Origin: Mustelus asterias
Taxonomy: Eukaryota
Reading direction: 5' to 3'
DNA: 64,000 bases
Assembly: GCF_964213995.1 (NCBI RefSeq)
Contig: NW_027590123.1
Span: 930,001 to 994,000, forward strand
Each line of letters begins with the position of its first letter. Position 1 is the stretch's first letter. The position numbers and the translations under genes are program-made. This document shows positions 2,129 through 2,653 of this stretch, piece after piece. The notes beneath the pieces are model-generated. The model saw only the letters and a program-made list of their open reading frames with translations, ran no database searches and was not told the DNA's origin.

Positions 2129-2167
2129 AGTTTTTGTACAGGTTCAGCCCAGTTCTGTTTCTCTGTG
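2129..2167 (-). promoter_or_regulatory. V(D)J recombination signal sequence, 23-bp spacer
   Basis: Minus strand: heptamer CACAGAG (2167-2161), 23-nt spacer AAACAGAACTGGGCTGAACCTGT, nonamer ACAAAAACT (2137-2129), directly after the CALRP codons. Confidence 0.93.
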
Positions 2168-2471
2168 GGTCTCAATGCGCAATAACACACGCCAGAGTCT
2201 GCCAGCTCCGTTTTAGACACTTTCAGCGGGACGGTGCGGGTTGTGCAATTGAGCTCCGCTAAAAAACGGTCCTCTGGGAATCTCTCTGTGTTCTCGCTAA
2301 CTCTATGTCTCGTCAGCAGGAACTCCATGGTCCCGCTGGGATACTGACGGTACCAGAATAAGTAAGGGGTGTTGCTTGTAGCTGTATAATCACAGAGCAA
2401 CTGAACATCATCTCCTTCAGTGACGGTGACTGCAGCCGCTGTTTGTGAAACAGAATCTCCTCCACAGTGTC
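2168..2471 (-). pseudogene. T-cell receptor alpha/delta-type variable segment, V exon (open frame; gene probably pseudo because the leader is broken)
   Basis: After acceptor TTCTTCCAG it translates GHCGGDSVSQTAAAVTVTEGDDVQLLCDYTATSNTPYLFWYRQYPSGTMEFLLTRHRVSENTERFPEDRFLAELNCTTRTVPLKVSKTELADSGVCYCALRP. Shows IgV Cys, WYRQ, DSGVxYC and a TRAV/TRDV-like CALR end followed by a 23-RSS. Confidence 0.9.
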
Positions 2472-2595
2472 CTGGAAGAACGCAAAGAAATATTGAACTA
2501 AATGCGGCTTCGCATTAAACATCACATACCCCCCTTCCCCCCAACACCTCCCTCTCCCCCCCCCCACCCCGCCACTCCCCAGAATCTGCTGTCAT

Positions 2596-2653
2596 CTTGA
2601 ACAATAATCTCAGAGATAAATCACACAGCAGAACAGAAGCATATATTTTTCAC
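2596..2653 (-). pseudogene. Degenerate leader exon of the V segment
   Basis: 58 nt, phase 1: (GTG)KNICFCSAV*FISEIIVQ-G, then ATGACAG where a GT donor is expected; implied intron 124 nt. The alternative ATG at 2642 gives MLLFCCVIYL-stop. Both readings are defective. Confidence 0.55.

What the first reader, a model, noticed from the sequence alone, without database searches (positions are those of the whole stretch)
2129..2653. Solitary TCR alpha/delta-like V segment: open V exon and good 23-RSS but dead leader
Seen: an uninterrupted IgV exon with an intact acceptor, RSS CACAGAG-23-ACAAAAACT, and a leader remnant with GTG start, internal TGA and AT in place of the GT donor. No other V, D, J or C segment is recognisable in the 61 kb upstream. 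Established: TRAV/TRDV segments carry 23-RSS and normally sit in dense arrays. Inference: this is either the distal edge of a shark TCR alpha/delta locus (rest off-window to the left) or an orphon that remains a potential RAG substrate or conversion donor.
Basis: partly seen in the sequence, partly recalled or inferred. Interest (0 to 1): 0.7.

Follow-up and report, generated by a model that had tools for sequence, protein, structure and literature searches.

The report
Headless shark T-cell receptor V pseudogene
This is an ordinary broken shark-type T-cell-receptor variable gene piece: a deletion removed its signal-peptide exon and likely its promoter, and the damaged copy occurs six times in the assembly, mostly beside an antibody (IgM) gene cluster, in a mixed antibody/T-cell-receptor layout that is already published.

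Summary
The open TCR alpha/delta-type V exon (2471-2168, minus strand) and its 23-RSS are real.

The 'dead leader' (2594-2653) is intron. 24 of 30 close paralogs carry a true 52-nt leader exon 495-616 nt upstream of the acceptor, and a paralog with an intact leader has the same 'remnant' translation. Here a 2.5-2.9 kb deletion removed the leader exon and the DNA upstream of it, next to an 85-nt LINE tail. The junction occurs at six places in the assembly.

The segment is not solitary. The genome gives at least 150 matches, a broken V lies 4 kb left of the window, an identical V lies 101 kb right, and a complete IgM minicluster lies 65 kb downstream. Four of the six damaged copies sit 81-83 kb from an Ig constant exon, so the V was likely copied as a passenger with the IgM unit.

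TCR alpha/delta V exons, including pseudogenes, between IgM clusters are published (PMC12227049), and this scan noted similar dead Vs on other DNA. Verdict: ordinary pseudogene; a residual role as RAG substrate is unlikely and untested.

The parts
2168..2471 (-). TCR alpha/delta-type V exon, 304 nt, open, phase 1; two extra Cys (VCYC for YYC, shared by 10 of 30 paralogs; ELNC, found in 5 of the 6 deleted copies)
2129..2167 (-). 23-RSS: heptamer CACAGAG (2167-2161), 23-nt spacer, nonamer ACAAAAACT (2137-2129); same heptamer in 28 of 30 paralogs
2472..2973 (-). Orphaned 3' part of the leader-V intron, with intact acceptor (AG at 2473-2472)
   Evidence: collinear with the intron of leader-bearing paralogs
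2594..2653 (-).
   Evidence: same translation in L009, which has an intact ATG leader further upstream; no ATG start at this place in any of the 25 of 30 loci where it was located
2974..3058 (-). 85-nt LINE 3' tail inserted in the intron (CR1-like by recalled tail repeat)
   Evidence: absent from C112 and C128, present in 6 of 30 loci; matches the LINE tail near 2006 on the opposite strand
3059..3073 (-). 15-nt remnant of the 5' intron, starting 62 nt behind the lost splice donor
3074..3091 (-). Deletion junction with a 17-nt filler; 2,463 bp (vs C128) or 2,871 bp (vs C112) are missing, including leader exon, donor, presumed promoter and an upstream broken V
   Evidence: junction at exactly 6 places in the assembly, 0 in the control
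3091..8803 (.). Upstream flank shared with paralogs, with tRNA-Asn (6228-6302) and tRNA-Glu (7666-7739); 8803 is the edge of the duplicated block
353..2070 (+). Decayed LINE (RVT_1) 3' part ending about 60 nt beyond the nonamer; part of a 5-kb block absent from C112

Best explanation
This is a TCR alpha/delta variable segment that lost its leader exon and the DNA upstream of it in a 2.5-2.9 kb deletion, so it likely cannot be expressed, and it was likely copied afterwards as a passenger of segmental duplications that carry an IgM minicluster. Shown: the deletion, the LINE tail beside it, six copies of the junction, the neighbouring IgM cluster, and 79 kb of collinearity with a second copy on C71. 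Inferred: the deleted stretch held the promoter; the open frame and good RSS reflect recent death, not use; without a promoter the RSS would rarely be reached by RAG; any join would lack a start codon and signal peptide. Intact members of the family would join 12-RSS D-delta or J-alpha segments elsewhere in the complex.
For: True leader in 24 of 30 loci (21 ATG, 3 ATA), absent in the 6 that carry the LINE tail. Breakpoints mapped against C112 and C128. No leader homology on this copy in the 264 kb examined. No hydrophobic ATG...GT phase-1 candidate in 6.3 kb upstream (2 candidates, hydropathy 0.64 and -0.37). Among deleted copies the exon diverges like its flank (Fisher p 0.49-1.0, 3 comparisons), and damage accumulates: a 30-nt loss in L010, D-to-P in L005. 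A frame stays open in 59-71% of trials after 7-11 random substitutions. IgM cluster VH-D-D-JH-CH1-4 at C91:851-867 kb. Same-strand C1-set exon 81-83 kb downstream in 4 of 6 copies. Collinear block at C71:13.146-13.229 Mb, 93-99% identical.
Against: Against C112 the exon is less diverged than the flank (7/304 vs 228/4215, p 0.015, one of five uncorrected tests; against C128 p 0.40), which allows earlier selection or conversion. The exon tree does not resolve the six deleted copies as one group against the ATA copies with strong support (83/48; L010 branches apart). The RSS is intact. Copies at 99.4-99.6% identity could be haplotype or assembly duplicates.
Confidence: 0.88

Rival explanations
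1. The headless V is still cut by RAG and is kept for that: its 23-RSS could join the 12-RSS of the neighbouring IgM D1 by deletion, removing VH and silencing that cluster, or it serves as a gene-conversion donor for intact paralogs.
For: RSS intact. D1 12-RSS at C91:866,637 faces it in deletional orientation 65.5 kb away. The same layout recurs in 4 of 6 copies. Shark IgH clusters are partly rearranged in thymocytes (PMC2435157 passages). Exon more conserved than flank against C112.
Against: Nurse shark IgH recombination was found within miniloci, with no long-distance events seen (PMC2435157 passages). Presumed promoter deleted. No constraint on the exon among deleted copies. Co-duplication explains the recurring layout. 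One copy breaks off at 8803 and another (C91:1,033 kb) was duplicated without its IgM cluster.
Confidence: 0.06
2. One reading: an orphon or the distal edge of a V array, killed by three point mutations in a leader at 2594-2653.
For: No other segment inside the 64-kb window. No TCR constant exon found on contig C91, so a cis partner is not shown.
Against: The supposed leader is unchanged in a paralog with an intact real leader. V segments lie 4 kb left and 101-127 kb right, and an IgM cluster 65 kb left. Identical V on C71, which holds a J-alpha/C-alpha cassette.
Confidence: 0.03
3. The deletion is an assembly artefact and the gene is intact in the animal.
For: Very repetitive region; no listed contig of three public runs bridged the deletion junction, though the tool warns that a hole proves nothing.
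Against: The same junction occurs at six places whose flanks differ by 0.1-2.2%. Run contigs match across the intron/LINE-tail border with 0 differences (X3: 2883-3005); these runs may be the assembly's own source.
Confidence: 0.03

Closest known systems
TCR alpha/delta V exons between IgH miniclusters in the elasmobranch antigen-receptor complex (AgRC; Flajnik et al. 2025, PMC12227049; seen: abstract, sections 6 and 15, Table S1 part 1 of 2 and search rows)
   Same: TCR alpha/delta-type V, in both orientations and including pseudogenes, lying tens of kb from IgM clusters; Table S1 lists IgM followed by 'TCRadV' and 'TCRadV pseudo' rows on great white shark chromosome 27.
   Different: The parts seen give gene lists, not lesions or duplication units. 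Here the lesion and its six-copy spread are mapped. PSMB5/UrIg2 linkage was not tested.
[quoted passage not shown]
   Same: 60% identity over 96% of the V, E 4e-28; its N-terminus resembles the true leader of the family.
   Different: P0002 is a full leader-V-J-C chain; this copy has no leader and no partner found on its contig.
Nurse shark IgM minilocus (Malecek et al. 2008, PMC2435157; seen: passages)
   Same: The neighbouring cluster has one VH, two D, one JH within about 2 kb and C-mu exons downstream.
   Different: It is the neighbour, not the finding; the V in question is only 27% identical to that VH.

Membership tests
TCR alpha/delta V gene segment (TRAV/TRDV) | V-set exon with Cys, Trp, Cys core, closest to TCR alpha/delta V | tested here: met
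   Pfam V-set; best single-domain PDB matches are TCR alpha chains; 60% to shark TCR alpha versus 27% to the neighbouring VH
TCR alpha/delta V gene segment (TRAV/TRDV) | 3' RSS with 23-nt spacer | tested here: met
Functional TRAV/TRDV gene | Leader exon with ATG and GT donor, and upstream promoter | tested here: not met
   deleted; no substitute within 6.3 kb
Functional TRAV/TRDV gene | D-delta/J-alpha and constant gene in cis | tested here: inconclusive
   none found on C91 (J scan of 264 kb finds only a JH); contig is 2.5 Mb and its neighbours are unknown
Functional TRAV/TRDV gene | Found rearranged or expressed | not testable with these tools
   no RNA holder listed
Orphon | Lies outside the main receptor locus, away from other segments | tested here: not met
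   other V and an IgM cluster within 4-127 kb; identical V and collinear block on C71, which holds J-alpha/C-alpha
Elasmobranch antigen-receptor complex (AgRC) | TCR alpha/delta V interspersed with IgH miniclusters | tested here: met
Elasmobranch antigen-receptor complex (AgRC) | Linkage to PSMB5 and UrIg2 | not tested
   not searched

The most novel reading that the evidence does not exclude
Headless TCR V segments that travel with IgM miniclusters act as decoy 23-RSS partners: in thymocytes, where IgH clusters are open to RAG, they join IgM D1, delete VH and shut the cluster off, a built-in way to keep T cells from making antibody.
Probability: 0.04. Interest if true: 0.65.

Novelty: new member of a known kind. 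Interest (0 to 1): 0.14.

Why it matters
Little by itself: a dead V in a published type of region. It shows concretely how such scattered Vs arise (death first, then copying with an 80-kb IgM unit), and it warns that an open exon with a good RSS overcounts functional V genes, because leaders in this family lie 500-600 nt upstream. The side observations (two J-alpha/C-alpha cassettes, 19 delta-type transmembrane exons) deserve more attention than the finding.

Tried and rejected
Point-mutated leader at 2594-2653: rejected. An alternative leader upstream: none. RAG-made deletion: no heptamer at either breakpoint in the sequences printed. Expression: no RNA holder listed, no evidence either way. 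Bridging of the deletion junction by public run contigs: 1 contig laid, none bridging, no evidence either way. Hydropathy did not discriminate between the candidate leaders. Reading the 5-kb LINE block as an insertion in this lineage: not supported, since C112 joins a LINE piece directly to a LINE tail there, which fits a deletion in C112. My first J scan failed (0 hits) and was rewritten. A genome-wide J pattern gave 0 matches and is uninformative. The near-length protein search gave one unnamed fish protein among 3 candidates. No RIC score was available. Only the best 30 of 150 scored V matches (1,627 candidates) were examined for leaders. Part 2 of Table S1 and the PDF supplement of PMC12227049 were not read; they may bear on the two C-alpha genes.

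Full report
Observation. The minus strand holds an open V exon from 2471 to 2168 behind an intact acceptor. It is a V-set domain. Its best single-domain PDB matches are TCR alpha chains, and its one longer database hit, among 91 candidates, is a zebra shark TCR alpha chain at 60% identity. The RSS CACAGAG-23-ACAAAAACT at 2167-2129 is unique in the window and expected 0.01 times by chance. No second V, J or RSS was found in the window, which is otherwise LINE pieces, satellites and two tRNA genes.

The leader is misidentified. The own genome gave 150 scored matches from 1,627 candidates, and I examined the best 30. In 24 of 30 a 52-nt exon encoding a 17-residue signal peptide, ending in a phase-1 GT donor, lies 495-616 nt upstream of the acceptor; 21 start with ATG and 3 with ATA. 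The stretch read as a dead leader lies inside that intron. It has the same translation, stop included, in L009, whose true leader is intact.

The real lesion. Against the closest leader-bearing paralogs, homology runs to 2974, stops, and resumes at 3091. Between lie an 85-nt LINE tail (3058-2974), 15 nt of 5' intron and a 17-nt filler. The missing DNA is 2,463 bp (C128) or 2,871 bp (C112). It holds the leader exon, its donor, 62 nt of intron, the region upstream of the ATG (promoter by inference) and another broken V. No leader for this copy exists in the 264 kb examined, and no substitute lies within 6.3 kb. The junction occurs at exactly six places: C91 twice, C71 twice, C123 and C242. Their upstream flanks differ from the window by 0.1-2.2% in the four measured.

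Why it still looks intact. Among deleted copies the exon changes at the rate of its flank (p 0.49-1.0). One copy has lost 30 nt and one has D-to-P before the second Cys. The window copy has four Cys where 20 of 30 paralogs have two. With 7-11 substitutions a frame stays open 59-71% of the time. Against this, the exon is less diverged than the flank relative to C112 (p 0.015, uncorrected, one of five tests), and the exon tree gives only weak support for one group of deleted copies.

Context. The window is C91:930,001-994,000. A frameshifted V with a 23-RSS lies about 4 kb left of it. A 29-kb duplicate at 99.4% identity carries an identical V 101.4 kb to the right, followed by four more Vs at 1,049-1,059 kb. 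At 851-867 kb, on the same strand, lies a complete IgM minicluster: VH, two D, JH and four C exons with a secretory tail. C91:860-939 kb is collinear with C71:13.146-13.229 Mb at 93-99%. Four of the six deleted copies have a same-strand C1-set exon 81-83 kb downstream. So the dead V was likely amplified with an IgM unit. No TCR constant exon was found on C91; C71 holds a J-alpha/C-alpha cassette at 18.4 Mb.

Mechanism. Shown: leader loss, copy spread and IgM neighbourhood. Inferred: no expression, and poor RAG access without a promoter (established for mammalian loci, recalled, not tested in sharks here). The RSS is formally compatible with the IgM D1 12-RSS 65.5 kb away, and shark thymocytes do partly rearrange IgH. 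But nurse shark IgH joining was reported within miniloci, without long-distance events (PMC2435157, passages), so I give this 6%.

Comparison. Flajnik et al. 2025 (PMC12227049; abstract, sections 6 and 15, Table S1 part 1) report TCR alpha/delta V exons between IgH clusters in four elasmobranchs, and list pseudogenes among them. Ott et al. 2018 (PMC5931798, passages) report V families shared between alpha and delta chains, so alpha versus delta cannot be assigned. Earlier notes of this scan describe similar dead Vs on other DNA; they are unreviewed leads only.

Verdict. A real but ordinary pseudogene; new member of a known kind; interest 0.14.

Noticed in passing
G000:C546:190,000-242,100 and G000:C71:18,374,000-18,432,000 (L051-L054, L082-L095): Two separate J-alpha/C-alpha cassettes: 40 J found in the 59 kb read on C546 and 15 J in the 80 kb read on C71; the C-alpha Ig exons are only 84% identical, likely too far apart for alleles. 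One paper search was uninformative on whether this is in print.
   Followed up: partly
19 places on 17 contigs, e.g. G000:C123:620,864 and C436:229,674: 19 near-identical TCR delta-type transmembrane exons. Both units examined have D-like 12/23 RSS and J segments upstream (3 J on C123, 1 on C436), suggesting repeated D-J-C delta units.
   Followed up: partly
L006, L007, L008 (C112, C1002, C143): Sister copies keep the leader exon but have ATA for ATG; L008 also has heptamer CATAGAG. Only 1 of the 10 closest copies (L009) has an ATG leader.
   Followed up: yes
G000:C91:1,049,490-1,049,830 (L046): An open V exon of another family with a consensus heptamer and 23 spacer, the only undamaged-looking TCR-type V exon besides the identical copy in the 264 kb read; leader not checked.
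   Followed up: no
G000:C91:878,810-879,063: Broken VH-like segment 12 kb upstream of the IgM VH.
   Followed up: no
window 5190-5285 (minus), 6228-6302, 7666-7739: tRNA-Asn and tRNA-Glu genes and a tRNA-like stretch seen by eye near 5190-5285 that ARAGORN did not call; tRNA genes recur throughout the duplicated blocks (19 in 264 kb).
   Followed up: no
window 29,662-54,146: 69-bp tandem repeats alternating with (GA/GT)-rich arrays, including a 12-kb array of about 20-bp period; the duplicated V block ends at 8803, well before them.
   Followed up: no
window 3074-3090: The 17-nt filler at the deletion junction forms a short near-palindrome with the adjoining base; origin unknown.
   Followed up: no
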